Below, one piece after another: positions 6,798 through 63,428 of a stretch of 64,000 bases of DNA. The DNA is taken from NCBI GenBank assembly GCA_964387845.1, contig CAYLXA010000001.1, positions 192,001-256,000 of the forward strand, in the 5' to 3' direction. The notes beneath the pieces are model-generated. The model searched no databases, had not been told where the DNA came from, and was given only the letters and a program-made list of their open reading frames with translations. The stretch is from an uncultured bacterium (GTDB lineage: Bacteria > Omnitrophota > Omnitrophia > Omnitrophales > Abzuiibacteriaceae). The first letter of the stretch is position 1. Every line of letters starts with the position of its first letter. A program made the translations under genes and the position numbers.

Positions 6798-6870
6798 TGG
6801 CGGGGGGCGGGATCGAACCGCCGACGCGAGGCTTATGAGTCCTCTGCTCTACCAACTGAGCTACCCCGCC
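6798..6870 (-). tRNA. tRNA with CAU anticodon; elongator tRNA-Met or lysidine-modified tRNA-Ile2
   Basis: Reverse strand folds as GGCGGGG-TA-GCTC-AGTTGGTA-GAGC-A-GAGGA-CTCATAA-GCCTC-GCGTC-GGCGG-TTCGATC-CCGCC-CCCCGCC-A. It has a 7-bp acceptor stem, a G1-C72 pair (so not an initiator), and anticodon CAT; CCA is not encoded. Confidence 0.8.
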
Positions 6871-14482: not shown

Positions 14483-14748
14483 TCATCATGAACAACATCA
14501 TCGTCGTCTTTATGCTTTAAATCATTCATGCGATCAGGGTCGCTTTTTATTTTCAAGAGCGCCCTTTCAATCCTCTGCAAGTCCTGCGGAGACGGCTGAA
14601 TCACCCGTTCTTCAATTTGATTCAAATAACTTTCGGGCATTCCGGTCAATGCCGCAAGTTCCAGCAGTTCGACTTTGAGCTCATTCCGTAAAATTTTTAA
14701 TTCGTGCAAATTCATGAATGCCTCGCCCTGTGTTCTTTTAGTATACAT
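14479..14748 (-). CDS. Small hypothetical protein; real start is probably the internal MNLHELK
   Basis: ORF only; helical, possible HTH; 4-nt coupling with the downstream gene. Confidence 0.3.
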   Translation of the reverse strand: MYTKRTQGEAFMNLHELKILRNELKVELLELAALTGMPESYLNQIEERVIQPSPQDLQRIERALLKIKSDPDRMNDLKHKDDDDVVHDE

Positions 14749-20939: not shown

Positions 20940-20953
20940 GCTTTCAAAGCAAA

Positions 20954-20986
20954 AAACCCTTTCTCAAATCGAGAAAGGGTTTTTTG
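20954..20986. terminator. Bidirectional rho-independent terminator between convergent tpx and orn
   Basis: aaaaaACCCTTTCTCaaatcGAGAAAGGGTttttt: a 10-bp perfect stem flanked by an A-run and a T-run. Confidence 0.8.
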
Positions 20987-20989
20987 TTT

Positions 20990-23278: not shown

Positions 23279-23296
23279 ATTCGCCTTCTAAACGCA

Positions 23297-23348
23297 AAAC
23301 CGCACTCACCGGTACACATGCATTTCTACCAGTGAGTGCGGTTTTTTT
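23297..23348 (+). terminator. Rho-independent terminator after the SWIB gene
   Basis: aaaaCCGCACTCACcggtacacatgcatttctaccaGTGAGTGCGGttttttt. Confidence 0.75.
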
Positions 23349-28917: not shown

Positions 28918-29463
28918 TCATTTGACGCGAGCCATCAAGCTTTCTACAATCCGAATCGACGGAAGCAGCCGCAAATTACTTTTTTGCTTAATAGCTTTGA
29001 GATACCGGCTCGTTTTTCGTACGGTTTTTGGCAATTGATTGGACGCAGCGGTAGAGACATCAAGTAAATTATCATGAATGTCGGCGAGCTTGATTAATTT
29101 GACTTCATCCGGCGCGTCCCGCAGCTGCTTGGCGTATGCCGCTTCGCACTCTTCTTCCGGCAAGCGCTTGTCCTTTGACATGAGCGCCGCCCACCGGGCA
29201 ACATCGCGCCCGAAACGCTCTTCAATATCGTCAAAATCTTTGTCGGTATCTTCGATCACGTCATGCAATACCGCGGCAGCCAAAATCTTTTCATCTTTAA
29301 CACCGAATACATGCCGTAAAGTCATGCAGACGCGGAACACATGCGCCGCATAAGGTGTTTTGTTGTCTTTGCGGTATTGCCCTTCATGAGCACGTGCCGC
29401 AAGCGAAATGGCCCGCGCTAAAAGTTCAAAATTACTTTTCGCTGATTTTGATTTACGCTTCAT
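28918..29463 (-). CDS. HD-domain small (p)ppGpp hydrolase-like protein (SpoT/RelA-type HD domain only)
   Basis: [20 protein letters not shown]...[13 protein letters not shown]...[12 protein letters not shown]...KLADIHDNL matches the alarmone-hydrolase HD signature; 181 aa with no synthetase domain. Confidence 0.65.
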
Positions 29464-32400: not shown

Positions 32401-33130
32401 CGCAATTAAATCCGAGTGATAACAAATTGGCGTGTGACATTGAAATTGCAAACGCTTGCGCCGTTTGGCCCGACAGCGTGCGGCCGCTGGCATCTGTAAT
32501 GGTCCCCGAAACCATAATCGGAAAGTGTTTCTTTACTTTTTTGGAATATTCCTCAATCGCAAAAAGTGCGGCTTTGGCGTTCAGCGTATCAAAAACGGTT
32601 TCGACCAATAAAATATCGGCACCGCCGTCAATCAATCCCCGGATTTGTTCCGTATAAGCATCCACCAATTCATCAAACGAGACCGCACGAAAACCGGGAT
32701 TGTTCACATCGGGCGACAGCGATGCCGTCCGGTTGGTCGGGCCGATGGACCCTGCAACAAAACGGGGCTTTTTTGGGTTTTTGTCCGTAAATTCGAGCGT
32801 GAGCTTTTTGGCAAGCTGCGCACCTTGAACATTCAAATCGTAAACCAGATTCTCCATTTTGTAATCTGCCATGGAAATCCGCTGTGAATTAAACGTGCTG
32901 GTTTCCAAAATATCGGCGCCGGCTTCAAGATAAGCCCGATGGATATCGGAGATAATTTTAGGCTGCGTCAGGACAAGGAGGTCGTTATTGCCCTTCACGC
33001 TCACGGGGTGGTTGGCAAACTGCTTTCCGCGATAACCGGCCTCATCAAGCCCATAAGTCTGGACCATGGTGCCCATGGCACCGTCAAGAATCAAAATCCG
33101 CTTTTTAAGTTCCTGGGTAATATCGGTCAT
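29453..33130 (-). CDS. metH: Cobalamin-dependent methionine synthase
   Basis: 1225 aa with Hcy-binding, pterin-binding, B12-binding ([10 protein letters not shown]) and AdoMet activation regions in order. Confidence 0.95.
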
Positions 33131-37647: not shown

Positions 37648-38856
37648 CTAGTTCTTACAATTGTTTCTTATTTGTGCTGGTTTTGTTAGCACCATGTTAG
37701 CACGGCTTCCAAAAACTTCTTCATCCAATCTCTTCCCTACACCTTCATAAACAACCGGTAGCAAGTGTCCATATCGGTCAAGTGTTGTCTGAATAGAAGC
37801 ATGCCCTAATTGCGACTGAATAAGCTTAATATTTTCCCCCTGTGAAATCAAGAGGGTCGTGTAAGTATGTCTAAGGTCGTGAAACCGCACCCTTCTTAAT
37901 CCAGCCTTTTTGAGAGCACTAGAAAAATCCCGTTTCACCAAATTATCGGGATCCAGCGGATCGCCGTTTACATTGCAAAATATCAGATCGTGAAGTTTGG
38001 GAGGGAACAACTCACGGTATAAATTCAGTCCTTTCTCTAGAACTTTCGACATAACGATTGTTCTTATAGACCTTCTTGATTTTGGTGTAATAAATTTCCA
38101 ACGGTTACAATTCGTTTCTTTAATTTCGCGCCAACAGCGCCAATATAAACTCCTTCTCACGAAAATTATCTTCCGATTCCAGTCGATGTCTTTCCACTGG
38201 AGACCAAGCAACTCCCCTCTTCTCATCCCCGTCAGCACAGCTGTTAAAATGATGGTTCTTAGAGGTTCATCAGAGTTCTTTAAGAGAAGTCTGATATCTT
38301 GCGGTGTAAGAAAATCCATTTCTCTTTGCTCTTCTCGAATTCTGTCAATATCTGCCGCTGGATTTTCAAAGATATATTTCCATTTTCGAGCATGATTAAA
38401 CATGGTTTTTAAAAGGGACAGGTGGTGATTTACCGTCTTGGCGCTTCTTTTATCGTTTAACTCTGAAATGAATTTCTGAATATCATGCGGACGGATACCT
38501 AAAATAGCTCGGTCTCCCAACGCCGGAACAATGGTTGAATTAATCATTGACTCATAATTTCGGAATGTTGAGTCTTTAATAGAAACTCGAGCATAACTGT
38601 CTAGCCATTTCTTTGAAAATTCGGAAAACAAAATCTTGGGTGGCGCAAAGAAAGTTCCTTTATTAACGGATGAGAGTATTTCACTCAGCCTAGCCTCTGC
38701 GTCCTTTTTCTTCGGGCCAATGCGTTCCCACTTTTGCAAACGGCCTGACCTGAATATGATATAGTAGGCTGCTGATTGATGGCTGCATTTGCCGACACCG
38801 TCAGTCGCGTTTTTCCTGCATTTTCCACACCGCCATACGATACTACCTCTTGCCAT
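37648..38856 (-). CDS. int: Tyrosine-type site-specific integrase
   Basis: C-terminal catalytic box VRFHDLRHTYTTLLISQG...LGHASIQTTLDRYGHL (R..H-R-H..Y). Start taken at MARGSIVW; the track start at 38877 is further upstream. Confidence 0.9.
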   Translation of the reverse strand: MARGSIVWRCGKCRKNATDGVGKCSHQSAAYYIIFRSGRLQKWERIGPKKKDAEARLSEILSSVNKGTFFAPPKILFSEFSKKWLDSYARVSIKDSTFRNYESMINSTIVPALGDRAILGIRPHDIQKFISELNDKRSAKTVNHHLSLLKTMFNHARKWKYIFENPAADIDRIREEQREMDFLTPQDIRLLLKNSDEPLRTIILTAVLTGMRRGELLGLQWKDIDWNRKIIFVRRSLYWRCWREIKETNCNRWKFITPKSRRSIRTIVMSKVLEKGLNLYRELFPPKLHDLIFCNVNGDPLDPDNLVKRDFSSALKKAGLRRVRFHDLRHTYTTLLISQGENIKLIQSQLGHASIQTTLDRYGHLLPVVYEGVGKRLDEEVFGSRANMVLTKPAQIRNNCKN

Positions 38857-38907
38857 GACTGCCTCCAGGATTAGCAAGATTTATTGTACCGTATTTCGGT
38901 CTATTTA

Positions 38908-52324: not shown

Positions 52325-53362
52325 TTATACGAGTTGATATTGCCGGTTTTGAATTTCCAAGTTACTTTCCTCCTTTTCGTACTCCGTTAGATAATCAAAG
52401 CTGCAATCTTCACAGAATGAGCCGCCGGTTGCTTCGTCATAAAAGAGTTTGCCGGCTTCCACTTGGTCTTTACACAGTGAACATAGAAGCTTTGATTTTT
52501 CAGTGATGTTTGAATCTTCGAGAAATCCCATATACCGAAGCTCATCAAAGCTGTAGAGATAGGGATTCCCCGGCACTTTGAAGTCATCCTCTGTGAGCGA
52601 CTTGCGCATCGGGTTCTCCATCTCGCAAGGTATTTTTCGCATGGGACATTTTTCAGAAAGTTCTTCAACGTTAATTTTGTAAAGCACGTTGGATTGAATC
52701 TCGAGAAAATTGCCTTTCATGAAGTTTCTTGCAAGAGCGTATTGCAAGTGGATTTTCTCGCTCGACCAAAGCAAGGTTTTGAACTTAGGGACATAAACAG
52801 CGTAAAGCGTCCGTTCAACATTTCGGATGAGATAAAGCGTTTTCCTGTCATCCGTTTGCATGAATGCCAACGCAAAATCCCCAAACATCATCGAAAGCCG
52901 TTCAGCGACTTCTCTGTCGGAGGAGGCGCCATCCAAAACACGGAATACCGCCTCGCTATCGACGTCAGTTTTTTGCTCCGTGTTAAATCGTTTGAGAAGT
53001 TCAGTTCGATTTAGAAAATGCCCATTGTGCACACCGGCAAAATTCTCCGAGACAAACGGATGACAATTCCGGGATGAGATTGCTCCTACTGTGGCAAGCC
53101 GCGTATGGCCCAGAACAATGAGCGTATCCGCACCGATTTTCTTGATGACGTTACGCATCCGGACGGTGCGCAAAAGCTCGCTCGCTGGTCTGGCTTCCTT
53201 GAAAACGGTCATGCTCTCTTCTGCTGCTGTGAGCAATCCAGTTCCGTCTTGACCTCTTGTTTCATTGAGAAAAGCCAAATCCATCACTACGCCTTGAAGC
53301 CTCAGTTTCTCTGCTCCGCTTAAGGGCAGGGCCTCTCTCACAAATCCGAATATTCCACACAT
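52325..53362 (-). CDS. Class-II (Ntn) glutamine amidotransferase domain protein with C-terminal Cys-rich zinc ribbon
   Basis: N-terminal MCGIFGF, the Cys-2 nucleophile hallmark of GAT-II/Ntn hydrolases; ...HTRLATVG...NCHPF; C-terminus CSLCKD...CEDCSFDY. Confidence 0.65.
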   Translation of the reverse strand: MCGIFGFVREALPLSGAEKLRLQGVVMDLAFLNETRGQDGTGLLTAAEESMTVFKEARPASELLRTVRMRNVIKKIGADTLIVLGHTRLATVGAISSRNCHPFVSENFAGVHNGHFLNRTELLKRFNTEQKTDVDSEAVFRVLDGASSDREVAERLSMMFGDFALAFMQTDDRKTLYLIRNVERTLYAVYVPKFKTLLWSSEKIHLQYALARNFMKGNFLEIQSNVLYKINVEELSEKCPMRKIPCEMENPMRKSLTEDDFKVPGNPYLYSFDELRYMGFLEDSNITEKSKLLCSLCKDQVEAGKLFYDEATGGSFCEDCSFDYLTEYEKEESNLEIQNRQYQLV

Positions 53363-53410
53363 GGTAAGTCTCCTTAGGTTTAATTGGGATTGAACTACTG
53401 AAGTGATAAA

Positions 53411-54685
53411 TTACTTTTGAACAGCTGCCAGAGTGGGAGCTGTTTCGAAGAACTTCTCGGGATGAAACTTTAAGATCCTTTGCTCGATGTAATTCCGAAT
53501 CTTCGTCCGGAATTTCAGCAGCACGCAGAATGCCTCAAACTGTTCTTTGAATGAAGCAAACTCCGAAAACCTGAAGTCTCTTTGACGCTTTGACTCGTCT
53601 ACGATCGCTTGGCAGATCACAATGAAATTTGTAATCTTAAGCGGGTTCGTTGTTCCCGAGTGATAGCGAAACTCCACTGAACGCCTGAAGAACCAAGAGT
53701 GAATGTTGACACCGAAGTATCTTGAGTTGTCAAACTTAGACTTCGTATCCACTCGCGCATTCCTTCTGCCGTACCAGAGCCGCTTTAAATCCATCTCATC
53801 TTTGACTTTGAACCGGAACCGTGATTTGGGAAATCGATTGAGCGGCACGGAGTAAGAACCGGAAAACCTTGATTCCGGAAGCATGGCATAAATCACCGGC
53901 TCAAACGCCACCGCAATCTTCAGCAATTTCTTGATGTTCTGAAAATCAAGATCCCGCCCATCAATGTGGACATGAAGACCGCAGCGCTTGTCCACGAAGT
54001 AATTCCAGTCAAGCAGCTTTTGAGTGAAAATGGCGATTTCGTTAAAGCCGTCATCGCCTTGAAGAATCGGGCTCGCAAATTCCATGCCCCAATCTCCCAG
54101 AGAGCCGTCATGCTGTTTGCTCCAAGCGCCCACTTCATCAACCGGAAGATGCATTTCCTCATCCCGAAGTATGGCTTCAATTTCCACGCCGTATTTTCTT
54201 TTTGATTTGCACAGTTTGAATTTAGCCGACGAAAATTCATGGTGCTGAATCAGCTCGCCGTTCTCCACCATGCGGTCGTAACAGTCTTCACAGTAAGTTG
54301 ACTCCCCTCTTCTAAAGCAGCGGGTAGAGTCAACCTCAGAACCGCAATCCTCGCAGAAGATTATGTTTTCAGATTCACAGGCGGAGCAGTAATAGACGTC
54401 CTGCAAATCTGAATAACGAGCGTCCTCTGACGCCGCATATTCCCCGCAGGCATTGCATTCCCTGTAATTGGCGTGAAAGCAGCTTTCACAAAGCCTCAAC
54501 CCTGCAACTGCAAAGGATTCGTCAAGCCACATGGGACGTTCGCATTTCCCGCACGGCTTCACACGTTTTTCAAAACACGCCGGGCAAAGATACCGGTCTT
54601 GATAGGTTTTAAACAAATCGACGTTTACGACAACACTGCAGGACGGGCATTTCTTTTCTTCTGCCCGTATTTCCAAAAGTTCCAT
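53411..54685 (-). CDS. Putative amidoligase (glutamine-synthetase/GCS2-like, Amidoligase_2-type) with N-terminal array of six CxxC zinc ribbons
   Basis: N-terminal 150 aa contain CPSC, CPAC, CGKC, CESC, CNAC, CSAC, CEDC, CEDC pairs. The C-terminus has YGVEIE, GLHVHIDG and VEFRYHSGT motifs reminiscent of the amidoligase family. Confidence 0.5.
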   Translation of the reverse strand: MELLEIRAEEKKCPSCSVVVNVDLFKTYQDRYLCPACFEKRVKPCGKCERPMWLDESFAVAGLRLCESCFHANYRECNACGEYAASEDARYSDLQDVYYCSACESENIIFCEDCGSEVDSTRCFRRGESTYCEDCYDRMVENGELIQHHEFSSAKFKLCKSKRKYGVEIEAILRDEEMHLPVDEVGAWSKQHDGSLGDWGMEFASPILQGDDGFNEIAIFTQKLLDWNYFVDKRCGLHVHIDGRDLDFQNIKKLLKIAVAFEPVIYAMLPESRFSGSYSVPLNRFPKSRFRFKVKDEMDLKRLWYGRRNARVDTKSKFDNSRYFGVNIHSWFFRRSVEFRYHSGTTNPLKITNFIVICQAIVDESKRQRDFRFSEFASFKEQFEAFCVLLKFRTKIRNYIEQRILKFHPEKFFETAPTLAAVQK

Positions 54686-54709
54686 GGCTCATCTCCTTTT
54701 CTATTGTTT

Positions 54710-54898
54710 TCAAACTGTCTGGTGATCTTGGCTTTGGTTTTTAACTGACATGCGATCTCTGCGCTTTCGCTCATAGAGACGCTTTAATATCCACAAGGGA
54801 ACGAACGTCCAATACCCTCTTGGCCTTCCTGTCCACTCCGAAAGCTGGTCCGCATAAACTGATTTGTCTTCTGAGTCAAAAATGATGTAGGGATTCAT
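54710..54898 (-). CDS. Small hypothetical protein (62 aa)
   Basis: AAGGAG RBS directly after a hairpin; sequence MNPYIIFDSEDK... Confidence 0.35.
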   Translation of the reverse strand: MNPYIIFDSEDKSVYADQLSEWTGRPRGYWTFVPLWILKRLYERKRRDRMSVKNQSQDHQTV

Positions 54899-54965
54899 GG
54901 CAAGCTCCTTAAGTGAGAGGGCGGAAACTTTTTATTTCCGCCCTCTTTGTGTGACATGGCTTTGA

Positions 54966-55061
54966 TCAGCGCAGGACAATGGCCCAGCCGAACCGAACAA
55001 AATCTGTAATAAGATCCGGCATCAGCATTGCTTTGGCGCGTGAAACAATCAGCGTCTTCAT
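54966..55061 (-). CDS. Candidate 31-aa peptide MKTLIVSRAKAMLMPDLITDFVRFGWAIVLR
   Basis: Hand-translated; strong RBS AAAGGAGGT 8 nt upstream; flanked by two related GC-rich hairpins. Confidence 0.3.
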   Translation of the reverse strand: MKTLIVSRAKAMLMPDLITDFVRFGWAIVLR

Positions 55062-55141
55062 GGAATAAACCTCCTTTGAAAAGACAAAGGGCGAAGAATC
55101 GCTTCTCCGCCCTTTGCTTAATAGTTTGATCGAAGTTCTTA

Positions 55142-55369
55142 CTAGCTGACTTGGACTTGCTGTTCAGCTCTGCGCAAACCTTCAATCAGTTCGCCGATGA
55201 GCGCACAGTTAATTGTGACGCCTTTCTTCGTCGGCCGCGCTTCGCCCGTTACGGCATCAGCGAAAAAGACCCTGACATCAACGTAATCACGGTCTTTGTA
55301 CTTGCCGACTGAGATTTTAACTTCTTCGTTTTCATTACGTTTAAAACTGTAAATTTCCTGCTTTTCCAT
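55142..55369 (-). CDS. PC4/YdbC-like ssDNA-binding protein (paralog 2)
   Basis: 75 aa; ...VGKYKDRDYVDVRVFF...KKGVTINCALIGELIEGL is the PC4-like pattern; AAGGAGA RBS. Confidence 0.5.
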   Translation of the reverse strand: MEKQEIYSFKRNENEEVKISVGKYKDRDYVDVRVFFADAVTGEARPTKKGVTINCALIGELIEGLRRAEQQVQVS

Positions 55370-55499: not shown

Positions 55500-55536
55500 G
55501 ATTTAATGTTAAATTAGGACTTAATTAGCGATTAAC

Positions 55537-57360
55537 TCATCGTTTGGCTCCTCTTATCTTTTCAAATTTATGCGCAGTATCACTGAGCGTTTGAAACTGA
55601 TCGCTTTCGTCTTGAACGATTTCAGGCTTTGCGCTTTCACGTTTCCAATGCTCTGTTGCCCGCTCACGTTCATCTTTAATCTTCATGTGTATCCATGTTA
55701 AATTAATGTCTGTTTCAGAGGACAGCCGCAGATAATCAATTTTAAAACTTGGATATTTCATGACAACAATCGCTTCGCCGCGTCCAAGTGAACGAACCAA
55801 GTCAGGGTCGATGCGAAACGTCTGCGCTTCTCTGACAGATCCTCGCCCTGTCATGTCTGTGCCGAGCATGCCGGATTCAGTCTGATACGTGGAAACAAAA
55901 GTTCTTCGGGAGCCTCCAATTTTTGAATATTTGTCAATCGAGAATGGGTCATCCTGACGCATGATGATTTTTACGTTTGTGTTCTCGAGGATTTGCTGCT
56001 GAAAGGTCATGCGCTTCGCCGCGAGGTCAGCCAGGCTTTGGTGAAGAAGCGTTACAGCAAGTTTGGCGCCGCGCGCTTTATTCATGAAATCGATGAAGTT
56101 CTCGTAGACAAAGCTTGAAAATTCATCCACGTACACAGGAAAAAAGTGCCGCTCACCCTCTTCCATCTGCGTTTGAATGTAGTTGGAAACTGTTTTAATG
56201 TCCTGCAGGATGAGACGCCCGAATCTTTTCGCCGTTTCTTCGTAGCCCTGCGTATTGAGTGCGAAATAGACAATTTTATTCTTCTGATAAACCTCTAGGA
56301 GGTCAATTTTTGATTCCTGAGAATCCGTCAGTCTTGAAAACTCTGATTTAGTTACGAGGCCTAAATCCGCGATGAATCCAGAGAGAAACTTGGTATTATC
56401 ATGAAACATGTCTTTCATGACTTCCAAGTCCTTCGACATCCGGATATCGTCAAGCTGCGCTATCAGCGCTCGTAATTGATTCTTGTCCGTTAAAAGCTCA
56501 TACAAATCCCGGAACCTGACTTTTCTGTTCAAACTCACCAAAGCTCTGAGCAATGTCAATGCGGCTTCTTCCGCCTTTTTTCTGTAAAATTCCTCGCGCC
56601 ATTCAGTAGAGCCGATCAGTTTGTCCTTAATCTCTGATGCGTTTCCGCGCAAGAGTGGGTTGTATGTGTCCGATATTTCCGGATGTGATAGCGAGAAGAA
56701 TAGAAAGTCATCTTTCCTGCCGTTAATTTGAACAAAGTAACGAATCTTCGCCAATAATTCCAAATCGCCCTTGGCGTCCACGACTATCGCCCCGCGGCCT
56801 CGCTCGATATCCCTTTTAAGCAGCGGAAGCATGACTGATTCTGTTTTACCAACGCCCGTTGAACCTACAACATGCGTATGCATGAGCCTCATGTCATCCG
56901 TTAAGTAACAGCCCTTGCCCGACCAATAACTCGTACCCAGATAAGCTTGATTCGCCTCAACCGCCGTTTTTTGCTTCGTGATTTCTCTCGAAGAAATTCT
57001 CTTCAATCTGCGTTTCTTATCGTCAGAGGATGTATCTTTCGAATTCTTCATTGCATATCCCGTCAACATGAAAAACGGCAATGTAATCAACAAATAGGCG
57101 CTGTAGAGGCACGTAGCCGCGACTCCCGCTTTCGTCCAAGGTCTCGCCTCAAACCTTTCAACAAACCCATTTAAATATTTAATTGACCAAATGGTCGTAA
57201 GCGCTGCAAGCAAGGTGCTCAAATAAGCTATTATCTTGACCCAAGAACTAGATTGATTCTTGACCCATCCGTCAAGCTTCTTGCCCAACCATACCGGAAC
57301 GGATACGAAAAGGAATTCAAACGTTGACCCCGTAAGGCCCTTTGACGGCTTCTCATTCAT
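55537..57360 (-). CDS. Type IV coupling protein (VirD4/TraG/TraD family)
   Basis: Two N-terminal TM helices; Walker A VVGSTGVGKTES, Walker B-like IVVDAKGDLE, and the TraG/VirD4-like C-terminal all-alpha region; 607 aa. Confidence 0.8.
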   Translation of the reverse strand: MNEKPSKGLTGSTFEFLFVSVPVWLGKKLDGWVKNQSSSWVKIIAYLSTLLAALTTIWSIKYLNGFVERFEARPWTKAGVAATCLYSAYLLITLPFFMLTGYAMKNSKDTSSDDKKRRLKRISSREITKQKTAVEANQAYLGTSYWSGKGCYLTDDMRLMHTHVVGSTGVGKTESVMLPLLKRDIERGRGAIVVDAKGDLELLAKIRYFVQINGRKDDFLFFSLSHPEISDTYNPLLRGNASEIKDKLIGSTEWREEFYRKKAEEAALTLLRALVSLNRKVRFRDLYELLTDKNQLRALIAQLDDIRMSKDLEVMKDMFHDNTKFLSGFIADLGLVTKSEFSRLTDSQESKIDLLEVYQKNKIVYFALNTQGYEETAKRFGRLILQDIKTVSNYIQTQMEEGERHFFPVYVDEFSSFVYENFIDFMNKARGAKLAVTLLHQSLADLAAKRMTFQQQILENTNVKIIMRQDDPFSIDKYSKIGGSRRTFVSTYQTESGMLGTDMTGRGSVREAQTFRIDPDLVRSLGRGEAIVVMKYPSFKIDYLRLSSETDINLTWIHMKIKDERERATEHWKRESAKPEIVQDESDQFQTLSDTAHKFEKIRGAKR

Positions 57361-58088
57361 CCCAAGATGGAGCGTAGAGGAATTCTGGATGCCTTATTCA
57401 TCAGCTCCGCATCTTTCTTTTTCAGTAAGAGCTCATCATAGAGCACAAAGCAAAGCTTATTCTGAGGAACTTCAATGTCCAATAGCCAGCTCTTCACCAT
57501 GTGCCAAGACAGGATATAAATCACCAGGGTGAAATCATTTAGACGGCTGTATTTCGCAAACCTTGTCTCATACCTTTCCCGTTCCCTGAAGGAATTTTCA
57601 AGTTCAATCGCAATTCTCTGCCCGCTTACTTCGATGACCGCGTCAGGAAAAAATTCCCGGTCGTGCTCTTCTTTTCTGACAACCCGTTCGCTCAGCCATT
57701 TAACACCCTTAAAGTCCCGAAACAGGCACCGCAACGTCGCCAACTTGAGCGTATGCTCTATCGTATATTGGTTGATATCCCCGATTTCTCCAAAGCCACG
57801 GTCCAGCCCTTTCTCTTTCAAGACATCTATCCCCTCAGCCGTCAGCAGAAAAAGTCTCACTTTTTCTGATTTCGCCTTCTGGACATCCAAAGTCCTAATA
57901 AATCCTGCATCAACAAGCTTGCTCAAACGCTGCCTTGCAGTTCCTGACCTCACTTCGCTGTCAGGCCAAAATGCCGAGTAAATTTGATTCGCCATCATGT
58001 ACTTTTGTTCATTCAAGTACGTGAATATCTCGATATCACGCTCTGTAATGACGACACGCCGCAATTTATCCAATAAGTTTTCAGCCAC
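57357..58088 (-). CDS. Replication-relaxation family protein (winged-helix N-terminus); candidate non-canonical relaxase/accessory factor
   Basis: N-terminal wHTH ERDIEIFTYLNEQKYMMANQIYSAF...RQRLSKLVDAGFI; 243 aa; translationally coupled to the coupling-protein gene. Confidence 0.4.
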   Translation of the reverse strand: MAENLLDKLRRVVITERDIEIFTYLNEQKYMMANQIYSAFWPDSEVRSGTARQRLSKLVDAGFIRTLDVQKAKSEKVRLFLLTAEGIDVLKEKGLDRGFGEIGDINQYTIEHTLKLATLRCLFRDFKGVKWLSERVVRKEEHDREFFPDAVIEVSGQRIAIELENSFRERERYETRFAKYSRLNDFTLVIYILSWHMVKSWLLDIEVPQNKLCFVLYDELLLKKKDAELMNKASRIPLRSILG

Positions 58089-58141
58089 AGATTCACTCCC
58101 TCGCCATGGAAAGCCGGTTGGGCCCTTCCATGGCTTGCGAA

Positions 58142-58549
58142 TTACCGAATGGCCAGATCGGCCATTTTCCTCGCTAGATTTCTTGTTTCACTGACCGTAT
58201 TGCCAATGCTCCTTAAGTCATCCCTCAAGTTCAGCTGCCTATCCTTAAACCGATTTGGCGTCTTTGGCGCTTGAACAGGCTTCATCTGATAAACTTTTGG
58301 GGCTACCGTCAAACGAGCCTCCCTTGCCGCTGGTTCAATCTTACTCACACCCGCCTCAGCGTCTTTTGTCCATTGCAATTTCATGACCTGTTTTACGAGA
58401 TAAGCAGGCAGAGTCAGCCCTATTGCCGTTGACCCGATGATCATCCAGCAAGAAATACTGATACTTACAAGCTTAACTCCTAGTTTTCTCAGCTTGAGAT
58501 CCGTACGATCAACCGTTTCACTGACTTGCTTTTCAATTTCTTTCAACAT
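58142..58549 (-). CDS. Hypothetical membrane protein
   Basis: 135 aa with one TM helix; preceded by the conserved 45-nt element. Confidence 0.35.
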   Translation of the reverse strand: MLKEIEKQVSETVDRTDLKLRKLGVKLVSISISCWMIIGSTAIGLTLPAYLVKQVMKLQWTKDAEAGVSKIEPAAREARLTVAPKVYQMKPVQAPKTPNRFKDRQLNLRDDLRSIGNTVSETRNLARKMADLAIR

Positions 58550-58629
58550 TGTGGAACTCCTTATGTGGAAGCTTTATCGCTTCAAGTCTTTCATCCAAGT
58601 TTATGCTTGGCGGTTTCTGTTTATTTTTC

Positions 58630-58674
58630 GAAATGTTCTCTCATAGATGTTGTGCAAAAACAGCCATTTCGTAA
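58630..58674. promoter_or_regulatory. Conserved ~45-nt element (copy 2), ~80 nt upstream of the 58142-58549 gene
   Basis: ctcatagatgttgtgcaaaaacAGCcatttcgtaacaagCaaatt; see copy 1. Confidence 0.5.
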
Positions 58675-58761
58675 CAAGCAAATTCAATTAACAGATGGAA
58701 AATATTTTTTTATGTCTATTAATGAACTCAATTCATTCAACTCACCACTTCCTCACGAGCA

Positions 58762-58852
58762 CCTGTCCAAAAACCCTATCTCTCTACACACACCACACCC
58801 ACTGACAAGTACCCCTCGATTACGGATGGGAGAGATAGGGTTTTTGGACGGG
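58762..58852. repeat. Long perfect inverted repeat (20-bp arms, extendable to 23 bp with one G-U pair, 45-nt loop); candidate oriT or structured RNA
   Basis: 58765-58784 gtccaaaaaccctatctctc and 58830-58849 gagagatagggtttttggac; lies in the 455-nt non-coding gap between the STAND gene and the relaxation/T4CP block. Confidence 0.6.
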
Positions 58853-59004
58853 GACTCTCCCCGACGCTTGTGCGAAGTGAGGAAGTTACGTAGAATGCTT
58901 CAGTTACGAAGGAAGCGATGAATTCAAGTTCCCCTAAGTTACAATTTTTTGCGGGGATGAATGCGGAAATTTAAAATTAAACAAACATGTTCTTACGGTA
59001 ATGC

Positions 59005-62000
59005 TTATATAGTAGCCTCTGCGTCTTGGGTAAGCTCTTGTTTCATTTGTTCATCGCCGTAATTTCCAACATCTAAATAAAATTGATGCGCAGGGTGTTC
59101 TACACTAAAAAGCTTTGCGGTTTCCTTACCGCGAGTTGCTAGATTTTGGCTCTTTGCTGAGACTTCTCCAAATGACCTTGATGATCCCCCGCTAATTGCT
59201 ATTCCAAATAGATTGGATTTTACACGTTTAAGGCATTCAGCAGATTTATTTGAAGCCAATAGAATCAACTCTCCAACAAAAGCGTGCTCGTTAAATATAA
59301 AATTATCCTCCGCGTCTCTGACTAAAAGAGATATGCCCACAAGTTTATTTACAGTAGGATTTTTAAACCACTCTTTTAATATAGCTAAAGATTTAGCCGA
59401 ATACCCATCTGAAACTGCCCGAAAAAGCTTTTCAAGCCAAAAACGATCCGCTGTTTTTGCTAAAGACAGATTTCGAACTACTCTTACGTGCTTCTCATAT
59501 CCCATCATCGTGGAAATACCTTTATAAGCAGTGTCAAATCCTAAATACGGAAGGGGCGTATAATTTTCTCTTCTTGTAAGTTTTTTGACGGGCTTAGTTG
59601 ATTGACTATATAAATAGCGTGCAACTAAAAACTCAACGGCTGCCTGCGGATATTTTCTACAAACAAAAGAAAGGAATTCCTCAACATGGAAATCCTGCCG
59701 TTCAAAGATGTTAAATTTAACCAATTTGCTTAATAAGGATTTTAATTCGGTTTCATTCAGCTTAGAAAATGGAATGCCATAGTTCTCATTATAAATTTCA
59801 AAAAATTGGTCGAGCACTATTCCTCTTTCTTTCAAATCAATGCCCACAGCAAGTTTCTTAGCAGCTTCCGCATCAACCTGCCCTAGTTTTTGAAGTGCCT
59901 GAAGCGCCGTGCCAAAAATATTGTCGTTGCTATGTTTGAGTAAATACCCTACATTCTGGATATCCTCTTTAAAGGGTTTTTCTAAAAGGCCGCCCCAAGC
60001 GTAGGCATGAGCAATGTTGTGGTAGACGATTTGCCTTTTTGTTTTTAGTCCTTGTTTAATTAACGCCCTACTGATTTCTCGATAACTTTCCAATCCATTC
60101 AAGGGCCATAAAATTGATGAGCAAAATTTTTCCACTTCACCATTCTTTCTAGCGAGGCAAAGCTTAAATAATTTTACGGCGAAATCGGGATTGAGTTTTG
60201 TAATTTGAGAAAGAAGGTAATTGGGGTTAGCTGATCTTTTGTAGTGATTTAAATCGCGTAATCTTTTTTCTAAAACCATTAACAACTGACGAGGATTCTT
60301 AGCCTGTTTCAATAAGATTTCAGCTACCCCGCTCACCTCTTTTGCCGTTATTTCAGTTTGTTTACTAAAATCATGCTTTTTATTAACAAATTCTTCGAAA
60401 TCGTGAGCTATCGCACGGACAAGACGATATTCGAAATTCTCCGGTATAAGCTCATAAATACTTTTGATTTTTTTCTTTAATTCGTCGTGCCTTCCAAACA
60501 AACTAAACCAACGAAGTTGCGATCTTACGGCAAGTCGGAAACAGGACGACTTAATGATCTTTAATTTTCTTTTAACCAATTCGAGAATTGATAACTGTTC
60601 TGGCAAATAAACATCTTGCTCTGACTTTCCAGCGCGACGACCGTATAGTCCATGAGAATAGCTCAATGCTTTTAAGAGAGTATAAAGAGCTTCCATTAAC
60701 ATCTTTGGCGGGGCATCCGGTTGGATGAAGGAGCCAAGTAATTCTATAGTGCTATTACGCAAGTTTTTCACGGCTTCGTAATTTAAAGGCAAAGACCTGA
60801 AGGACATGCTTCCTTCATCGTACGAAGACTCTTCAATCTCTTTCGCGAGGAATTCTTCCAAAATATTCAAAGGTGTATAACGGTAAATAAAGTTATTTTT
60901 CTTGGCCACGGTTTCTTTAAGGAAGGCAAAAACTTTCTTATTGTAAACAAGGGGCTTTCCGACTTGATATTCAGCCAACTCTTTTAAGATTCTAACGGAA
61001 TGCTGCGGATGAGGATTTAATTCTCTTTCGTCAGTTTTTGCAATTTCCCAGAGAATTTTACAGGCAGGAGTGACATATTCTAAATTAAAGGCTATCTTTT
61101 TTAATATAGATGGAATTTTTTCCAATACATGACGATGCTTCCAGAAATCTCCATATAATTGCTTCTTAGGATTAGGGCGTGCGGGCGCTTTAATGGCGTG
61201 GTTTACTAGCTCTAATGCTTTATCAGGTTGATAATACGCCGACTCTTCGATTTCTTCCAAGATTTTAGTTCGCTCATAATGATCAGCTTTTCTAAAATCT
61301 TCGTGGATTTTTTTCCAAACGGAACTTAAAAGATCTACATTCAAGGCATTTTTTCTTGCTCGCCACTCTACTTCAGAAATATTTTTAAGAATGTTTTTTG
61401 CTAGAGTTGATTTAAATTTCTCATACACATGATCAGCAAATTTAGTGCTTGAGCCATCTTTGGCAATACAGGCTGAGTGAAGAATATGATCACTCAATAA
61501 ATCAGGAGCAAGCCTTGCCAACGCTCCGCGTCTTATCAAAACCCCTTTTTCTTCCATCGCATCAAATGCTTTGACAATATCAAAAACAGGACACGCAAGA
61601 AGTTCGGACAATTGTTTCCGTAACTCCTCGTTATTCAATCTCACTGGGGCAAGCACAGAAAGATATTGAAGAAGCTTATCTGCTAATCCCGGATTGGAGT
61701 AATTTTCTCCTTTAAGTTCATCTATAAATTTATCTAAAACGGTTCTTTGAAATTCATCGCTTTTGCTTATTTTGTATGGATGCAGCTTTTTATCGCGAAT
61801 TAATTTGCTGGCAATTACCGCTGCCAGGGGGCAGTCTCTGGTCATAGCCACGATATATTTAATCAGGCCAGAATCATGTCCGACAATGCTTTCAACGATT
61901 TCTTCTAAATCAACCTTTTTCAAATCACTTAACTCCGGAGGCCGTTCGATTTCGTTTAACAAAAGATTTGTATGCGCCAATACACTATCGACAAATTCTT

Positions 62001-62919
62001 TTCCGCGAGGGCGAATAGACAAAATGATTTTGATTTCGTCTTTCCGTGGAGAGTTGAAAATTGATAAAAGGTTGGGAAGACTCGTATATCTATGAGCATC
62101 ATCAATAACCAAAATGCTGCGGCCAGCCGGAAGAAGAGAAATTGTTTCAGTAGTTAGAACAAAGTTTTCACGAACAAATAAGACCCTAGCCCACTCACTC
62201 ACACCCACTTCTTGTTTTTTAGAAAATTCTAATAATAATTTACTTTTACCAATGCCGCCTCTTCCCGTAAGAACGATTACCTTCTTATCCGAGTTTGCAA
62301 AAGCTTCTAGACTAGACAATTCTGAGCTACGACCGACAAGATTAATCTCATGAGAAAATAAAACATCGCGCCGTAAGAGCGTACGAAAAAAATCTTGATA
62401 CGAAACAAGCGGCCCCTTTTTTCTATCTTCAAACTCCTTATAGGCGCTTATTGCGTTTAAAAATTCCTCACGAAGCTGATCAGACTCTGAAAATCTCTTA
62501 AATGTTCGCTCTTGTGCAACCTTATCAAAAAAAGCTTGGTGTTTCTTTTTTACTTCCAGGTCTTCGTCTTTAGGCTGCCATTCTTTTCCATTCGGAGTTT
62601 TTAAAAAAACAAAAACTTTTAAGCCTAAGCGGGTAGCTCGCTCATATTCTATTTGAGTATAAGAAATGCCAGCTTTGGGATTTACGGTTCCATACAGAGG
62701 CCCGATTAACAAGACAACGCAATCAGATCCCTCTAGATGCCGAAGACACGTTTCTTCAGGCGTATCAGGACTTGAAGGAAACCATTCCATTGCAGAAAAT
62801 TCTGTACCTTGTGCCGGAGTTAAACCTAAGAGGTTATTCCGTTCATCATTTAGACCAGCTTGTGGTGAACTTAAGAAGATTTTGAACTTTTTGAGGTCAG
62901 CCATTGAAAACTCTTCCAA
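59005..62919 (-). CDS. STAND-class P-loop NTPase with DUF4062-like N-terminal domain and ~900-aa C-terminal helical-repeat domain (Avs-like candidate antiphage protein)
   Basis: N-terminus KIFLSSPQAGLNDERNNL...CLRHLEGSDCVVLLIGPLYGT...ISYTQIEYERATRLGLKVFVF (FLSS motif); Walker A VIVLTGRGGIGKSKLL, Walker B SILVIDDAHRY; the remainder is all-alpha and repetitive; 1304 aa. Confidence 0.7.
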   Translation of the reverse strand: MEEFSMADLKKFKIFLSSPQAGLNDERNNLLGLTPAQGTEFSAMEWFPSSPDTPEETCLRHLEGSDCVVLLIGPLYGTVNPKAGISYTQIEYERATRLGLKVFVFLKTPNGKEWQPKDEDLEVKKKHQAFFDKVAQERTFKRFSESDQLREEFLNAISAYKEFEDRKKGPLVSYQDFFRTLLRRDVLFSHEINLVGRSSELSSLEAFANSDKKVIVLTGRGGIGKSKLLLEFSKKQEVGVSEWARVLFVRENFVLTTETISLLPAGRSILVIDDAHRYTSLPNLLSIFNSPRKDEIKIILSIRPRGKEFVDSVLAHTNLLLNEIERPPELSDLKKVDLEEIVESIVGHDSGLIKYIVAMTRDCPLAAVIASKLIRDKKLHPYKISKSDEFQRTVLDKFIDELKGENYSNPGLADKLLQYLSVLAPVRLNNEELRKQLSELLACPVFDIVKAFDAMEEKGVLIRRGALARLAPDLLSDHILHSACIAKDGSSTKFADHVYEKFKSTLAKNILKNISEVEWRARKNALNVDLLSSVWKKIHEDFRKADHYERTKILEEIEESAYYQPDKALELVNHAIKAPARPNPKKQLYGDFWKHRHVLEKIPSILKKIAFNLEYVTPACKILWEIAKTDERELNPHPQHSVRILKELAEYQVGKPLVYNKKVFAFLKETVAKKNNFIYRYTPLNILEEFLAKEIEESSYDEGSMSFRSLPLNYEAVKNLRNSTIELLGSFIQPDAPPKMLMEALYTLLKALSYSHGLYGRRAGKSEQDVYLPEQLSILELVKRKLKIIKSSCFRLAVRSQLRWFSLFGRHDELKKKIKSIYELIPENFEYRLVRAIAHDFEEFVNKKHDFSKQTEITAKEVSGVAEILLKQAKNPRQLLMVLEKRLRDLNHYKRSANPNYLLSQITKLNPDFAVKLFKLCLARKNGEVEKFCSSILWPLNGLESYREISRALIKQGLKTKRQIVYHNIAHAYAWGGLLEKPFKEDIQNVGYLLKHSNDNIFGTALQALQKLGQVDAEAAKKLAVGIDLKERGIVLDQFFEIYNENYGIPFSKLNETELKSLLSKLVKFNIFERQDFHVEEFLSFVCRKYPQAAVEFLVARYLYSQSTKPVKKLTRRENYTPLPYLGFDTAYKGISTMMGYEKHVRVVRNLSLAKTADRFWLEKLFRAVSDGYSAKSLAILKEWFKNPTVNKLVGISLLVRDAEDNFIFNEHAFVGELILLASNKSAECLKRVKSNLFGIAISGGSSRSFGEVSAKSQNLATRGKETAKLFSVEHPAHQFYLDVGNYGDEQMKQELTQDAEATI

Positions 62920-63071: not shown

Positions 63072-63428
63072 TCACGCTGAGGAATTATCAAGTGAAATCG
63101 ATAAGAGCCAATGGCCATTGTGCTGATTTTTGATTTTTTTAAGATTTTCATACCGTTTAAACAAATCATCCGGCAAACGTTCAAGGGCGTTTTCGATATG
63201 CTTATTGACAGTCTTTGGCTTAATTTTCATGGCTTGAGCGATTTCCTTCCGCTTCATGAAAAGCGAGAGAATAAAAGACGCCTTCTGGCTTGCCGTCAGC
63301 GAACGGAATAAGACCGGAGAACGGGGATTAATCTTTTCAGAGAACACGCGAGAGTTTGATTGGTCTCGCTCCTGCTCTCTGACAAGTTGTTCTAATTCCG
63401 GTGAAAACTTTTTAAATTGTTTTGGCAT
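63072..63428 (-). CDS. Small sigma-70 region-4-like HTH regulator
   Basis: LTASQKASFILSLFMKRKEIAQAMKIKPKTVNKHIENALERL; 118 aa. Confidence 0.5.
   Translation of the reverse strand: MPKQFKKFSPELEQLVREQERDQSNSRVFSEKINPRSPVLFRSLTASQKASFILSLFMKRKEIAQAMKIKPKTVNKHIENALERLPDDLFKRYENLKKIKNQHNGHWLLSISLDNSSA

What the first reader, a model, noticed from the sequence alone, without database searches (positions are those of the whole stretch)
58762..58852. Perfect 20-bp inverted repeat with 45-nt loop in the large non-coding gap beside the coupling-protein/relaxation genes: candidate oriT or sRNA
gtccaaaaaccctatctctc ... gagagatagggtttttggac (extendable to 23 bp with a G-U pair) is far more stable than the other hairpins in the window and is not followed by a U-tract, so it is not a simple terminator. 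Its position within ~1.5 kb of the replication-relaxation and VirD4 genes, in a 455-nt intergenic region, is where oriT sites with inverted repeats flanking a nic site are typically found. The CA-rich loop (acacacaccacaccc) could be the nick region.
Basis: partly seen in the sequence, partly recalled or inferred. Interest (0 to 1): 0.55.

Follow-up and report, generated by a model that had tools for sequence, protein, structure and literature searches.

The report
Nested DNA palindrome: likely transfer origin
The hairpin is real and is the core of a larger, conserved DNA palindrome that sits just upstream of the DNA-nicking (relaxase) gene in every related mobile element found, so it is most likely the site where conjugative DNA transfer starts and not a small RNA.

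Summary
The perfect 20-bp inverted repeat exists (58765-58784 / 58830-58849, 45-nt loop) and is far beyond chance. It is the inner stem (P2) of a two-tier palindrome of 140 bp (58747-58886) with an outer stem (P1), a 20-nt one-sided junction carrying TCCCCG, and flanking TCCCCG(C) repeats at fixed distances.

The same architecture occurs upstream of the relaxase operon in all 12 other related loci that reach that far. P1, the junction and the start of the loop keep their sequence. P2 changes sequence, with 16 of 18 pairs changed on both sides. It stays Watson-Crick: 232 Watson-Crick pairs, 1 G-T, 8 mismatches. Both strands fold equally well and nothing in Rfam matches. These point to a DNA element, not an RNA.

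The adjacent 243-aa gene is a distant MOBC (PD-(D/E)XK, PF13814) relaxase. pAM373, a MOBC plasmid whose oriT has been mapped experimentally, shows the same layout: a nested 142-bp palindrome with adjacent short repeats, between the coupling-protein and relaxase genes.

Best reading: the oriT core of this integrative conjugative element (ICE). A single-strand-origin-like priming role is possible as well. The CA-rich loop is not conserved, so it is a poor nick candidate. This is a new member of a known kind, of moderate interest.

The parts
58765..58849 (.). Perfect 20-bp arms at 58765-58784 and 58830-58849, with a 45-nt loop at 58785-58829.
   Evidence: In 13 loci the arms differ in sequence but stay complementary: 232 Watson-Crick pairs, 1 G-T, 8 mismatches. 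16 of 18 pairs have changes on both sides and none has a one-sided change.
58747..58886 (-). The whole two-tier palindrome. P1 outer stem is 58747-58756 with 58877-58886, plus 58759-58762 with 58870-58873, around a conserved internal loop. It encloses J1 and P2. The asymmetric features read on the gene-sense (-) strand.
   Evidence: The P1 sequence is nearly invariant in 12 loci. The covariance model scores 104.7 bits on the - strand and 39.4 on the + strand, and finds only one copy in the window.
58849..58869 (-). J1: a one-sided junction between P1 and P2, on the 5' side in gene orientation. It ends in the conserved TCCCCG(T/C) at 58849-58854 and holds a small side hairpin CGGGGA/TCCCCG at 58849-58863.
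   Evidence: TCCCCG lies at +30 to +32 from the start of P1 in 11 of 12 loci.
58819..58829 (-). The part of the P2 loop next to the 5' arm (gene-sense CCATCCGTAAT). It corresponds to the CCATTAT-like motif kept in relatives. The rest of the loop, including the CA-rich tract on the + strand, is not conserved.
58903..58910 (-). Conserved TTTC-N-TAAC motif (TTCGTAAC here), 17-20 nt upstream of P1 in gene orientation. In the window GTAACT occurs three times (58884-58941 region).
   Evidence: (D6).
58930..58969 (-). Array of TCCCCG(C) motifs. A degenerate direct copy lies at 58963-58969 and a direct copy at 58951-58957. An inverted copy (GGGGA on the gene-sense strand) lies at 58930-58934 and pairs with the 58951-58957 copy into a small hairpin. 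This is the candidate protein-binding site.
   Evidence: Motif positions are about -86, -72 and -50 (inverted) relative to P1 in nearly all loci. The background frequency of TCCCCG is 0.7 per kb.
58669..58746 (.). AT-rich spacer between the palindrome and the conserved leader block.
   Evidence: AT- or T-rich in all loci.
58550..58668 (-). Conserved promoter/leader block of the relaxase operon, with two small hairpins (58595-58610 and 58569-58584) and the ribosome-binding site. It is adjacent to, and probably separate from, the transfer-origin core.
   Evidence: One of the hairpins was also picked up.
57357..58088 (-). MOBC-type relaxase candidate of 243 aa: an N-terminal HTH plus a PD-(D/E)XK Replic_Relax domain.
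   Evidence: PF13814 E 5e-7 (above cut-off) and HTH_20. NCBIfam MobC_subf E 2e-15. PF13814 equals CONJscan MobC (PMC5357655). Collinear 23% match to the pAM373 relaxase. Invariant D/E/H/K residues.
55537..57360 (-). VirD4/TraD-type coupling protein of 607 aa, overlapping the relaxase stop.
58142..58549 (-). Conserved 135-aa ORF between the palindrome and the relaxase gene. Function unknown; it has a hydrophobic segment.
   Evidence: Homologues are in 10 loci. The ORF appears absent in L018, where the palindrome lies about 300 nt from the relaxase gene.

Best explanation
The hairpin is the inner stem of a roughly 140-bp two-tier DNA palindrome. Together with TCCCCG(C) repeats 50-90 bp to one side and an AT-rich stretch on the other, it forms the origin of transfer (oriT) of an integrative conjugative element. 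That element uses a MOBC-family (PD-(D/E)XK, restriction-endonuclease-like) relaxase.

The following mechanism is inferred by analogy with pAD1/pAM373 and is not shown here. The relaxase, through its N-terminal HTH and possibly with the small HTH protein encoded upstream in relatives, binds the repeated short motifs and the sequence-conserved outer stem and junction. The palindrome extrudes from supercoiled DNA or folds in the displaced single strand. The nuclease domain nicks one strand within or next to the palindrome. The neighbouring VirD4-type coupling protein then hands the strand to the type IV secretion system. The refolded hairpin on the transferred strand marks the site for termination and rejoining, and possibly for priming of the complementary strand.

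What is shown is the anatomy, its conservation and covariation, its DNA-like character, the link to the relaxase gene, and the architectural match to pAM373.
For: 1. Position. The element lies upstream of the relaxase operon, 660-760 nt from the relaxase start codon in the window. The same arrangement holds in the window and in 12 related loci from independent metagenomes and one genome. A truncated copy lies about 300 nt from the relaxase gene in L018. The upstream neighbours differ between loci.
2. Conservation pattern. P1, J1 (TCCCCG) and the start of the loop are nearly invariant while the relaxases fall to 44-54% identity. This indicates sequence-specific protein recognition.
3. P2 covaries. 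16 of 18 pairs change on both sides. 95.9% of cells are paired, against 79% in shuffles and about 44% when the partners are slid. Loop length varies from 15 to 48 nt. Intrastrand pairing is therefore what is selected, not a fixed-spacing dimer site.
4. DNA character. There are no one-sided or G-U changes in P2, the DNA folding energies of the two strands are equal at -36.1 and -35.7 kcal/mol, and there is no Rfam family.
5. TCCCCG(C) copies sit at fixed positions -86, -72, -50 (inverted) and +31.
6. The neighbouring gene is a MOBC relaxase followed by a VirD4 gene, inside a T4SS/integrase island.
7. pAM373 has an oriT mapped between its TraG-like and relaxase genes (PMC3084688, gives the pAD1 location; PMC5587640, notes the inverted repeats). 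That interval holds an 18-bp outer stem, a 25-bp perfect inner stem with a 27-nt loop, one-sided junctions, a 142-bp span and five 12-bp direct repeats alongside. TraX of pAD1 binds 5 direct repeats 70-120 bp from nic (PMC12857230).
8. The enterococcal family shows the same mix of a conserved outer stem and junction with a partly compensated inner stem.
Against: No experiment was done and no nick site is known. There is no detectable sequence homology to the enterococcal oriT: the covariance model finds nothing in pAM373-type loci. The relaxase matches MOBC models only weakly (NCBIfam 56.6 bits against a cut-off of 200; 23% identity to the pAM373 relaxase). My recollection that TraX nicks inside the 140-bp repeat (Francia and Clewell 2002) could not be read in the library. 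Short direct repeats as regular as those of pAM373 are not present here. The same anatomy would also fit a single-strand origin.
Confidence: 0.7

Rival explanations
1. A single-strand origin (sso-like) only. The folded hairpin on the transferred or rolling-circle single strand recruits RNA polymerase or a primase to start complementary-strand synthesis. Nicking takes place elsewhere.
For: ssoA-type origins are roughly 160-nt hairpins that act only as single-stranded DNA. They have a conserved stem-base motif (RSB) and a conserved loop motif (CS-6), and their sequence is otherwise diverse (PMC5703833; PMC8860593). The pattern here is similar: a conserved base and junction, a conserved loop start, a compensated stem, and strand asymmetry of 104.7 against 39.4 bits. 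The pAM373 oriT palindrome is 82% identical to a stretch of the 2.7-kb Rep plasmid pER371 and about 74% identical to stretches of small E. faecium plasmids.
Against: The constant linkage is to the relaxase gene, whereas sso position relative to other genes is flexible. No -35/-10-like hexamers were seen in the stems (and inspection). No RSB or CS-6 sequence is present. The flanking repeated protein-site-like motifs are typical of a relaxosome. In pAD1/pAM373 the homologous-looking structure lies inside the mapped oriT. The two roles need not exclude each other.
Confidence: 0.13
2. A structured RNA. Either a small RNA, or the 5' leader of the relaxase operon read from the - strand, regulating transfer-gene expression.
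For: The fold is very stable (z about -7) and the stems covary. The element lies upstream of an operon and its asymmetric conserved features read on the gene-sense strand. The two G-U cells in P1 are both on the sense strand.
Against: P2 has 232 Watson-Crick pairs and 1 G-U in 13 sequences, and no one-sided change in 18 covarying pairs. This is unlike RNA helices, which usually tolerate wobble. Both strands fold equally well. No promoter-like site was called in 58000-59400 and no terminator was called on the element. No Rfam family scores above noise. Direct and inverted TCCCCG copies lying outside the fold look like protein sites on DNA.
Confidence: 0.07
3. An operator, insulator or non-canonical terminator. 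The palindrome would bind a repressor (for example the small LuxR/sigma-70-region-4 HTH protein encoded upstream in relatives) or block read-through into the transfer operon.
For: An HTH gene lies directly upstream of the element in L005, L015, L016 and L017, and beyond the STAND insertion in the window. Repeated TCCCCG motifs are present. oriT regions often overlap promoters.
Against: Operators do not need 18-21-bp perfect arms with loops that vary from 15 to 48 nt. No T tract follows the element. The promoter-like conserved block lies about 80-100 nt further downstream.
Confidence: 0.07
4. A recombination site (att, res or dif-like), or a retron-like msr/msd template.
For: Nested inverted repeats with a conserved outer pair and a long, near-perfect inner hairpin superficially resemble retron a1/a2 plus msd. 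MOBC relaxases can catalyse oriT-specific recombination (PMC5714925).
Against: No reverse transcriptase gene occurs in any locus. The integrase is about 20 kb away in the window. The element stays internal to the island, next to the relaxase gene.
Confidence: 0.03

Closest known systems
oriT2 of Enterococcus faecalis pAD1 and the oriT of pAM373 (MOBC relaxases TraX / Orf8; Francia and Clewell 2002; Francia et al. 2013)
   Same: Both have a two-tier palindrome of about 140 bp. pAM373 has an 18-bp outer stem, a 25-bp perfect inner stem and a 27-nt loop, spanning 142 bp. The window has a 10+4-bp outer stem, a 20-bp perfect inner stem and a 45-nt loop, spanning 140 bp. In both, a longer single-stranded junction lies on the 5' side in gene orientation (17 nt against 20 nt, ending TCTCCGCC against TCCCCGT). 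Both have short repeated motifs on the upstream side, and both sit next to a MOBC relaxase gene and a coupling-protein gene. Within each family the outer stem and junction are conserved and the inner stem is partly compensated.
   Different: There is no detectable sequence homology. Gene order differs: T4CP - oriT - relaxase in pAM373, and oriT - 135-aa ORF - relaxase - T4CP here. The repeats here are 3-4 copies of a 6-7-nt TCCCCG(C) motif, one of them inverted, and not five regular 12-bp direct repeats. The hosts here are uncultivated bacteria (one locus is from an Omnitrophota MAG) with a VirB-like T4SS, not Firmicutes pheromone plasmids. Here the element is on a chromosomal island with a tyrosine integrase.
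ssoA-type single-strand origins of rolling-circle plasmids
   Same: Both are large (about 150-nt) imperfect DNA hairpins that act in single-stranded form and are orientation-specific. Both have a conserved stem-base motif and a conserved loop motif, with otherwise variable but complementary stems.
   Different: No RSB or CS-6 sequence is present here. No Rep/dso module is nearby. The element is tied to a relaxase gene.
Classical HUH-relaxase oriTs (RP4, R388, F, RSF1010)
   Same: An inverted repeat lies next to the relaxase operon, with an AT-rich flank and accessory-protein binding repeats.
   Different: Those have a single short inverted repeat (8-19 bp) about 8 nt 5' of a conserved nic sequence. 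No such nic consensus is present here, and the relaxase is not an HUH enzyme.

Membership tests
MOBC-type oriT (pAD1 oriT2 / pAM373 oriT architecture) | Lies in the non-coding region next to a MOBC (PF13814, PD-(D/E)XK) relaxase gene and a coupling-protein gene. | tested here: met
   The same holds in 12 related loci. PF13814 equals MobC according to PMC5357655.
MOBC-type oriT (pAD1 oriT2 / pAM373 oriT architecture) | A large (about 140-bp) compound inverted repeat. | tested here: met
   Window 58747-58886, 140 bp and two-tier. pAM373 14392-14533, 142 bp and two-tier.
MOBC-type oriT (pAD1 oriT2 / pAM373 oriT architecture) | A series of short repeats beside the palindrome that act as the relaxase binding site, 70-120 bp from nic. 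| tested here: inconclusive
   TCCCCG(C) copies lie at -86, -72, -50 (inverted) and +31 in nearly all loci. They are fewer and less regular than the five 12-bp repeats of pAM373. Binding was not tested.
MOBC-type oriT (pAD1 oriT2 / pAM373 oriT architecture) | Sequence homology to the enterococcal palindrome. | tested here: not met
   The covariance model of this family finds nothing in L021-L024. No plasmid DNA match was found. The resemblance TCTCCGCC-TGCAAAA against TCCCCGT-CCAAAA is only suggestive.
MOBC-type oriT (pAD1 oriT2 / pAM373 oriT architecture) | Site- and strand-specific nick by the relaxase inside the palindrome, and cis-acting mobilisation. | not testable with these tools
   Requires mobilisation assays and nick mapping.
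ssoA-type single-strand origin | Conserved RSB at the stem base and CS-6 (TAGCGT/A) in the loop. | tested here: not met
   Neither sequence is present in 58747-58886. Analogous but different conserved motifs occupy those positions.
ssoA-type single-strand origin | Orientation-dependent priming by RNA polymerase on single-stranded DNA. | not testable with these tools
   Only strand asymmetry of the conserved features could be shown.
Known structured RNA families (Rfam 15) | A score at or above a family's gathering threshold. | tested here: not met
   The best hits are microRNA hairpin models at 18 bits against thresholds of 72-81.
Intrinsic terminator | A G+C-rich hairpin with a short loop, followed by a U tract. 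| tested here: not met
   a 45-nt loop and no T run on either strand.
Retron msr/msd | An adjacent reverse transcriptase gene. | tested here: not met
   No RT domain occurs in the window neighbourhood or in any related locus.

The most novel reading that the evidence does not exclude
The two-tier palindrome is a dual-purpose single-stranded-DNA device. The same hairpin would be both the nicking and termination substrate of a restriction-endonuclease-like (MOBC) relaxase and a single-strand origin that primes complementary-strand synthesis in the recipient. MOBC transfer origins in general would then descend from, or double as, ssoA-like origins. Two observations point this way. The mapped pAM373 oriT palindrome is 82% identical to a stretch of a 2.7-kb Rep-only plasmid. 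The family described here evolves exactly like an sso, with a conserved base motif, a conserved loop motif and a wobble-free compensated stem.
Probability: 0.2. Interest if true: 0.6.

Novelty: new member of a known kind. Interest (0 to 1): 0.38.

Why it matters
MOBC relaxases are the least understood relaxase family. No covalent intermediate is known, and only one oriT system (pAD1/pAM373) has been dissected. This finding adds a second, sequence-unrelated family, from uncultivated bacteria, with the same two-tier palindrome plus flanking repeats. That suggests the architecture is a general requirement of PD-(D/E)XK relaxases and not an enterococcal peculiarity. It also gives a set of naturally covarying variants that show which positions are read as sequence and which as structure. 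In practice it pins down the cis-acting site needed to test or track mobilisation of this island and of its cargo, which includes a STAND NTPase gene inserted right beside the site.

Tried and rejected
- **Rfam:** gathering thresholds on the whole window and a permissive scan of 58400-59150 gave only noise.
- **Window DNA against PLSDB plasmids** (blastn, 55500-59100): no match.
- **Genome-contig scan with the relaxase profile:** only one relative.
- **Exact 15-mer of P1 in IMG/VR:** 61 hits, all chance. None has the partner arm within 220 nt.
- **Relaxase profile against the PDB:** no hit.
- **Distant MOBC plasmids** (Acinetobacter pAYTCM-4, Thermobacillus pTHECO01): no clear equivalent palindrome next to mobC, so uninformative.
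- **Francia et al. 2013 (PMC3746933):** could not be read. The statement that TraX nicks inside the 140-bp repeat therefore rests on my memory of Francia and Clewell 2002.
- **Logan contig ends as a possible nick or recombination point:** three contigs end within 2 nt of each other, about 120 nt upstream of the 135-aa ORF, at GTTACG|AAATG. I rejected this as evidence. The GTTACGAAA motif is not conserved at that place in other loci. The break also coincides with the 5' edge of a block that is nearly identical between related elements, which is where an assembly graph would branch.
- **ORF 58526-58921 (+, 131 aa) across the hairpin:** rejected as a gene, because relatives have indels and variable loops there.
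- **Taxonomy of the window:** could not be obtained.

Full report
**1. The observation**

The sequence GTCCAAAAACCCTATCTCTC lies at 58765-58784 and its exact reverse complement at 58830-58849, 45 nt apart. With up to three mismatches allowed, the 20-mer occurs only at these two places in the 64-kb window. Dinucleotide shuffles give a mean of 0.01 matches. It is the longest close-spaced inverted repeat in the window. The region folds far better than shuffled controls as RNA or DNA on either strand, with z-scores of -6.8 to -8.5.

No T/U run follows the hairpin, and the terminator scan does not call it. It lies in the 455-nt gap 58550-59004. On one side is the start of a 135-aa ORF (58142-58549, - strand). 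On the other is the stop of a 1304-aa DUF4062/STAND-NTPase gene (59005-62919, - strand).

**2. The hairpin is part of a larger element**

The 20-bp stem (called P2 here) is nested inside an outer stem, P1. P1 pairs ACTTCCTCAC (58747-58756) with GTGAGGAAGT (58877-58886), and continues after an internal loop with GCAC/GTGC. The full unit is 58747-58886, 140 bp.

Read on the gene-sense (-) strand the order is:
- P1 5' arm.
- A 20-nt one-sided junction, J1, which ends in TCCCCG and forms a small side hairpin (58849-58863).
- P2 and its loop.
- A 2-3-nt junction.
- P1 3' arm.

**3. Genomic context**

All genes around the element are on the - strand.
- The 243-aa protein (57357-58088) has an N-terminal HTH and a Replic_Relax domain (PF13814, above Pfam's cut-off). 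It matches NCBIfam MobC_subf at E 2e-15.
- PF13814 is the family that CONJscan calls the MobC relaxase superfamily (PMC5357655). These are PD-(D/E)XK enzymes (PMC3424549; PMC12857230).
- A profile of its 16 relatives has invariant D, E, H and K residues. The protein aligns collinearly, at 23% identity, with the pAM373 relaxase.
- Its stop codon overlaps a VirD4/TraD-type coupling-protein gene (55537-57360).
- Further along lie a PC4-like single-stranded-DNA-binding protein, an amidoligase and a glutamine amidotransferase. Beyond these are a VirB2-like pilin, VirB4, VirB9, VirB10 and a tyrosine integrase at 37648-38877.

The window therefore holds an integrative conjugative element, and the palindrome sits at the head of its DNA-processing operon.

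**4. Comparative evidence**

The relaxase has only 17 relatives among 5.8 billion proteins. Loci were fetched from a genome scan, a metagenome scan and exact look-ups.

In every locus that extends far enough upstream (12, plus the window) the same two-tier palindrome is present at the same place. L018 starts inside the element, and there its 3' part lies about 300 nt from the relaxase gene with no 135-aa ORF between them. The genes upstream of the element differ between loci. A small LuxR/sigma-70-region-4 HTH gene is directly upstream in L005, L015, L016 and L017. Its homologue in the window (63072-63428) lies beyond the STAND gene. The STAND gene, which has a lower G+C content (0.38), is therefore an insertion. 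The element cannot be a 3' UTR specific to that gene.

**5. What is conserved and what varies**

The following are nearly invariant across relaxases that share only 44-80% identity:
- P1, consensus ACTTCCTCACCTCGCAG / CTGCTCGGTGAGGAAGT, with a conserved 2x2 internal loop.
- The end of J1 (TCCCCGY).
- The base of P2 (CCAA/TTGG).
- The first bases of the loop (CCATTAT-like).
- A TTTC-N-TAAC motif 17-20 nt upstream of P1.

P2 exists in at least nine different sequence versions, yet it stays paired. Taken sequence by sequence there are 232 Watson-Crick pairs, 1 G-T and 8 mismatches. On the alignment, 16 of 18 P2 pairs show changes on both sides and none shows a one-sided change. Overall 95.9% of cells are paired, against 79% in column shuffles and about 44% when the partners are slid. 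The loop varies from 15 to 48 nt.

Outside the palindrome, TCCCCG(C) recurs at fixed offsets from P1: about -86, -72, an inverted copy at -50, and +31 inside J1. In the window these are 58963-58969 (degenerate), 58951-58957, 58930-58934 and 58849-58854. Downstream lie an AT-rich spacer and then a conserved leader block with two small hairpins and the ribosome-binding site.

**6. DNA or RNA**

Several results point to a DNA element:
- The long, freely covarying helix contains no wobble pairs.
- The two strands fold with equal DNA stability, -36.1 and -35.7 kcal/mol.
- No promoter or terminator was called.
- No Rfam family matches.
- Direct and inverted copies of a short motif lie outside the fold, as protein-binding sites would.

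The variable loop length argues for intrastrand pairing (a cruciform or a single-stranded hairpin) and against a dimer site on duplex DNA.

The element is nonetheless strand-asymmetric. A covariance model built from it scores 104.7 bits on the gene-sense strand and 39.4 on the other, and finds a single copy in the window. One particular strand is therefore probably the one read when folded. Which strand is transferred could not be determined.

**7. Comparison with what is known**

The only MOBC transfer origins that have been dissected are oriT2 of pAD1 and the oriT of pAM373. The pAD1 site lies between ORF53 (TraG-like) and ORF57 (the relaxase TraX) (PMC3084688) and contains inverted repeats (PMC5587640). 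TraX binds five direct repeats 70-120 bp from nic through a winged HTH and has a restriction-endonuclease-like active site (PMC12857230). From memory of Francia and Clewell 2002, which I could not read here, the inverted repeat spans about 140 bp and the nick lies inside it.

I read the pAM373 record directly. Between its coupling-protein-like gene and its replication-relaxation gene are the following features:
- An 18-bp perfect outer stem (14392-14409 / 14516-14533).
- A 25-bp perfect inner stem (14422-14446 / 14474-14498) with a 27-nt loop.
- Junctions of 17 nt and 12 nt, for a total span of 142 bp.
- Five 12-bp direct repeats alongside (14552-14629).

This is the same design as the window's element. 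Within the enterococcal family the outer stem and junction are likewise conserved while part of the inner stem is compensated. There is no detectable sequence homology between the two families. The element is therefore a new family with the known MOBC-oriT architecture, not a relative by sequence.

**8. A link to single-strand origins**

The pAM373 palindrome matches 318 plasmids. These include the 2.7-kb Streptococcus thermophilus plasmid pER371 (82% identity) and 4.5-kb E. faecium plasmids that carry no MOBC relaxase. In small Rep plasmids such a structure would be expected to be an ssoA-type single-strand origin. An ssoA is a roughly 160-nt DNA hairpin with a conserved stem-base motif (RSB) and a conserved loop motif (CS-6), and it is recognised by RNA polymerase on single-stranded DNA (PMC5703833; PMC8860593).

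The evolutionary pattern of the family in this window is what one would expect of such an origin: conserved base and loop motifs with a wobble-free, compensated stem. A priming role is therefore a serious alternative or additional function. It does not fit as well as oriT on three counts: the constant linkage to the relaxase gene, the flanking repeat array, and the lack of RSB and CS-6.

**9. Verdict**

The most likely reading (about 0.7) is that 58747-58886, together with 58887-58969, is the oriT of this element. In that model, proteins bind the TCCCCG(C) array and the conserved P1/J1. The palindrome folds, the MOBC nuclease nicks within or beside it, and the strand passes to the adjacent VirD4. 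The binding, folding and nicking steps are inferred by analogy and are not shown.

The rivals, with rough probabilities, are:
- A single-strand origin only (about 0.13).
- A structured RNA (about 0.07).
- An operator or terminator (about 0.07).
- A recombination site or retron-like template (about 0.03).

The finding is a new member of a known kind. It is useful for understanding MOBC relaxases but is not categorically new.

Noticed in passing
window 59005-62919 (- strand), with 63072-63428: A 1304-aa DUF4062 + STAND-NTPase gene with lower G+C (0.38 against about 0.45) lies between a small LuxR/sigma-70-r4 HTH gene and the palindrome. In L005, L015, L016 and L017 the HTH homologue is directly upstream of the palindrome. 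The STAND gene, a possible defence cargo, therefore looks like an insertion right beside the transfer origin.
   Followed up: partly
window 58550-58668; L001, L012 and L013 contig ends: The leader of the 135-aa ORF is conserved in all loci and contains two small hairpins, CCAAGcataaaCTTGG (58595-58610) and GAAGCgataaaGCTTC (58569-58584). It is almost identical between the window and L003/L012, although the encoded proteins are only 70-80% identical. Three independent Logan contigs end within 2 nt of its 5' edge (GTTACG|AAATG). This could be assembly-graph branching or a recombination boundary.
   Followed up: partly
L021 (pAM373) 14392-14533; L024 (pER371) 301-436; L023: The palindrome inside the mapped pAM373 oriT region is 82% identical to a stretch of the 2.7-kb S. 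thermophilus plasmid pER371 and about 74% identical to stretches of small E. faecium plasmids that lack a MOBC relaxase. This suggests a relationship between MOBC transfer origins and ssoA-type single-strand origins, or oriT-only hitchhiker plasmids.
   Followed up: partly
window 52325-55369 (- strand): A class-II glutamine amidotransferase, an Amidoligase_2 protein and a PC4-like single-stranded-DNA-binding protein are embedded between the T4SS genes and the coupling-protein gene. PC4 and the amidoligase recur in related loci (L001, L012, L015).
   Followed up: no
window 58142-58549 (- strand): A 135-aa ORF with a hydrophobic segment and no Pfam or NCBIfam match lies between the palindrome and the relaxase gene in 10 related loci. 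It is absent in L018. It could be an unrecognised relaxosome or T4SS accessory protein.
   Followed up: partly
window 23296-23345: A 25-bp, 88% complementary palindrome with no spacer lies in a non-coding stretch. A terminator-like 19-bp hairpin lies at 20947-20989.
   Followed up: no
window 6798-6870 (- strand) and 37648-38877 (- strand): A tRNA-Met gene and a tyrosine integrase gene lie about 31 kb apart, with housekeeping genes (for example MetH at 29453-33130) between them. The left end of the island is therefore probably near the integrase and not at the tRNA. The right end lies beyond the window.
   Followed up: no
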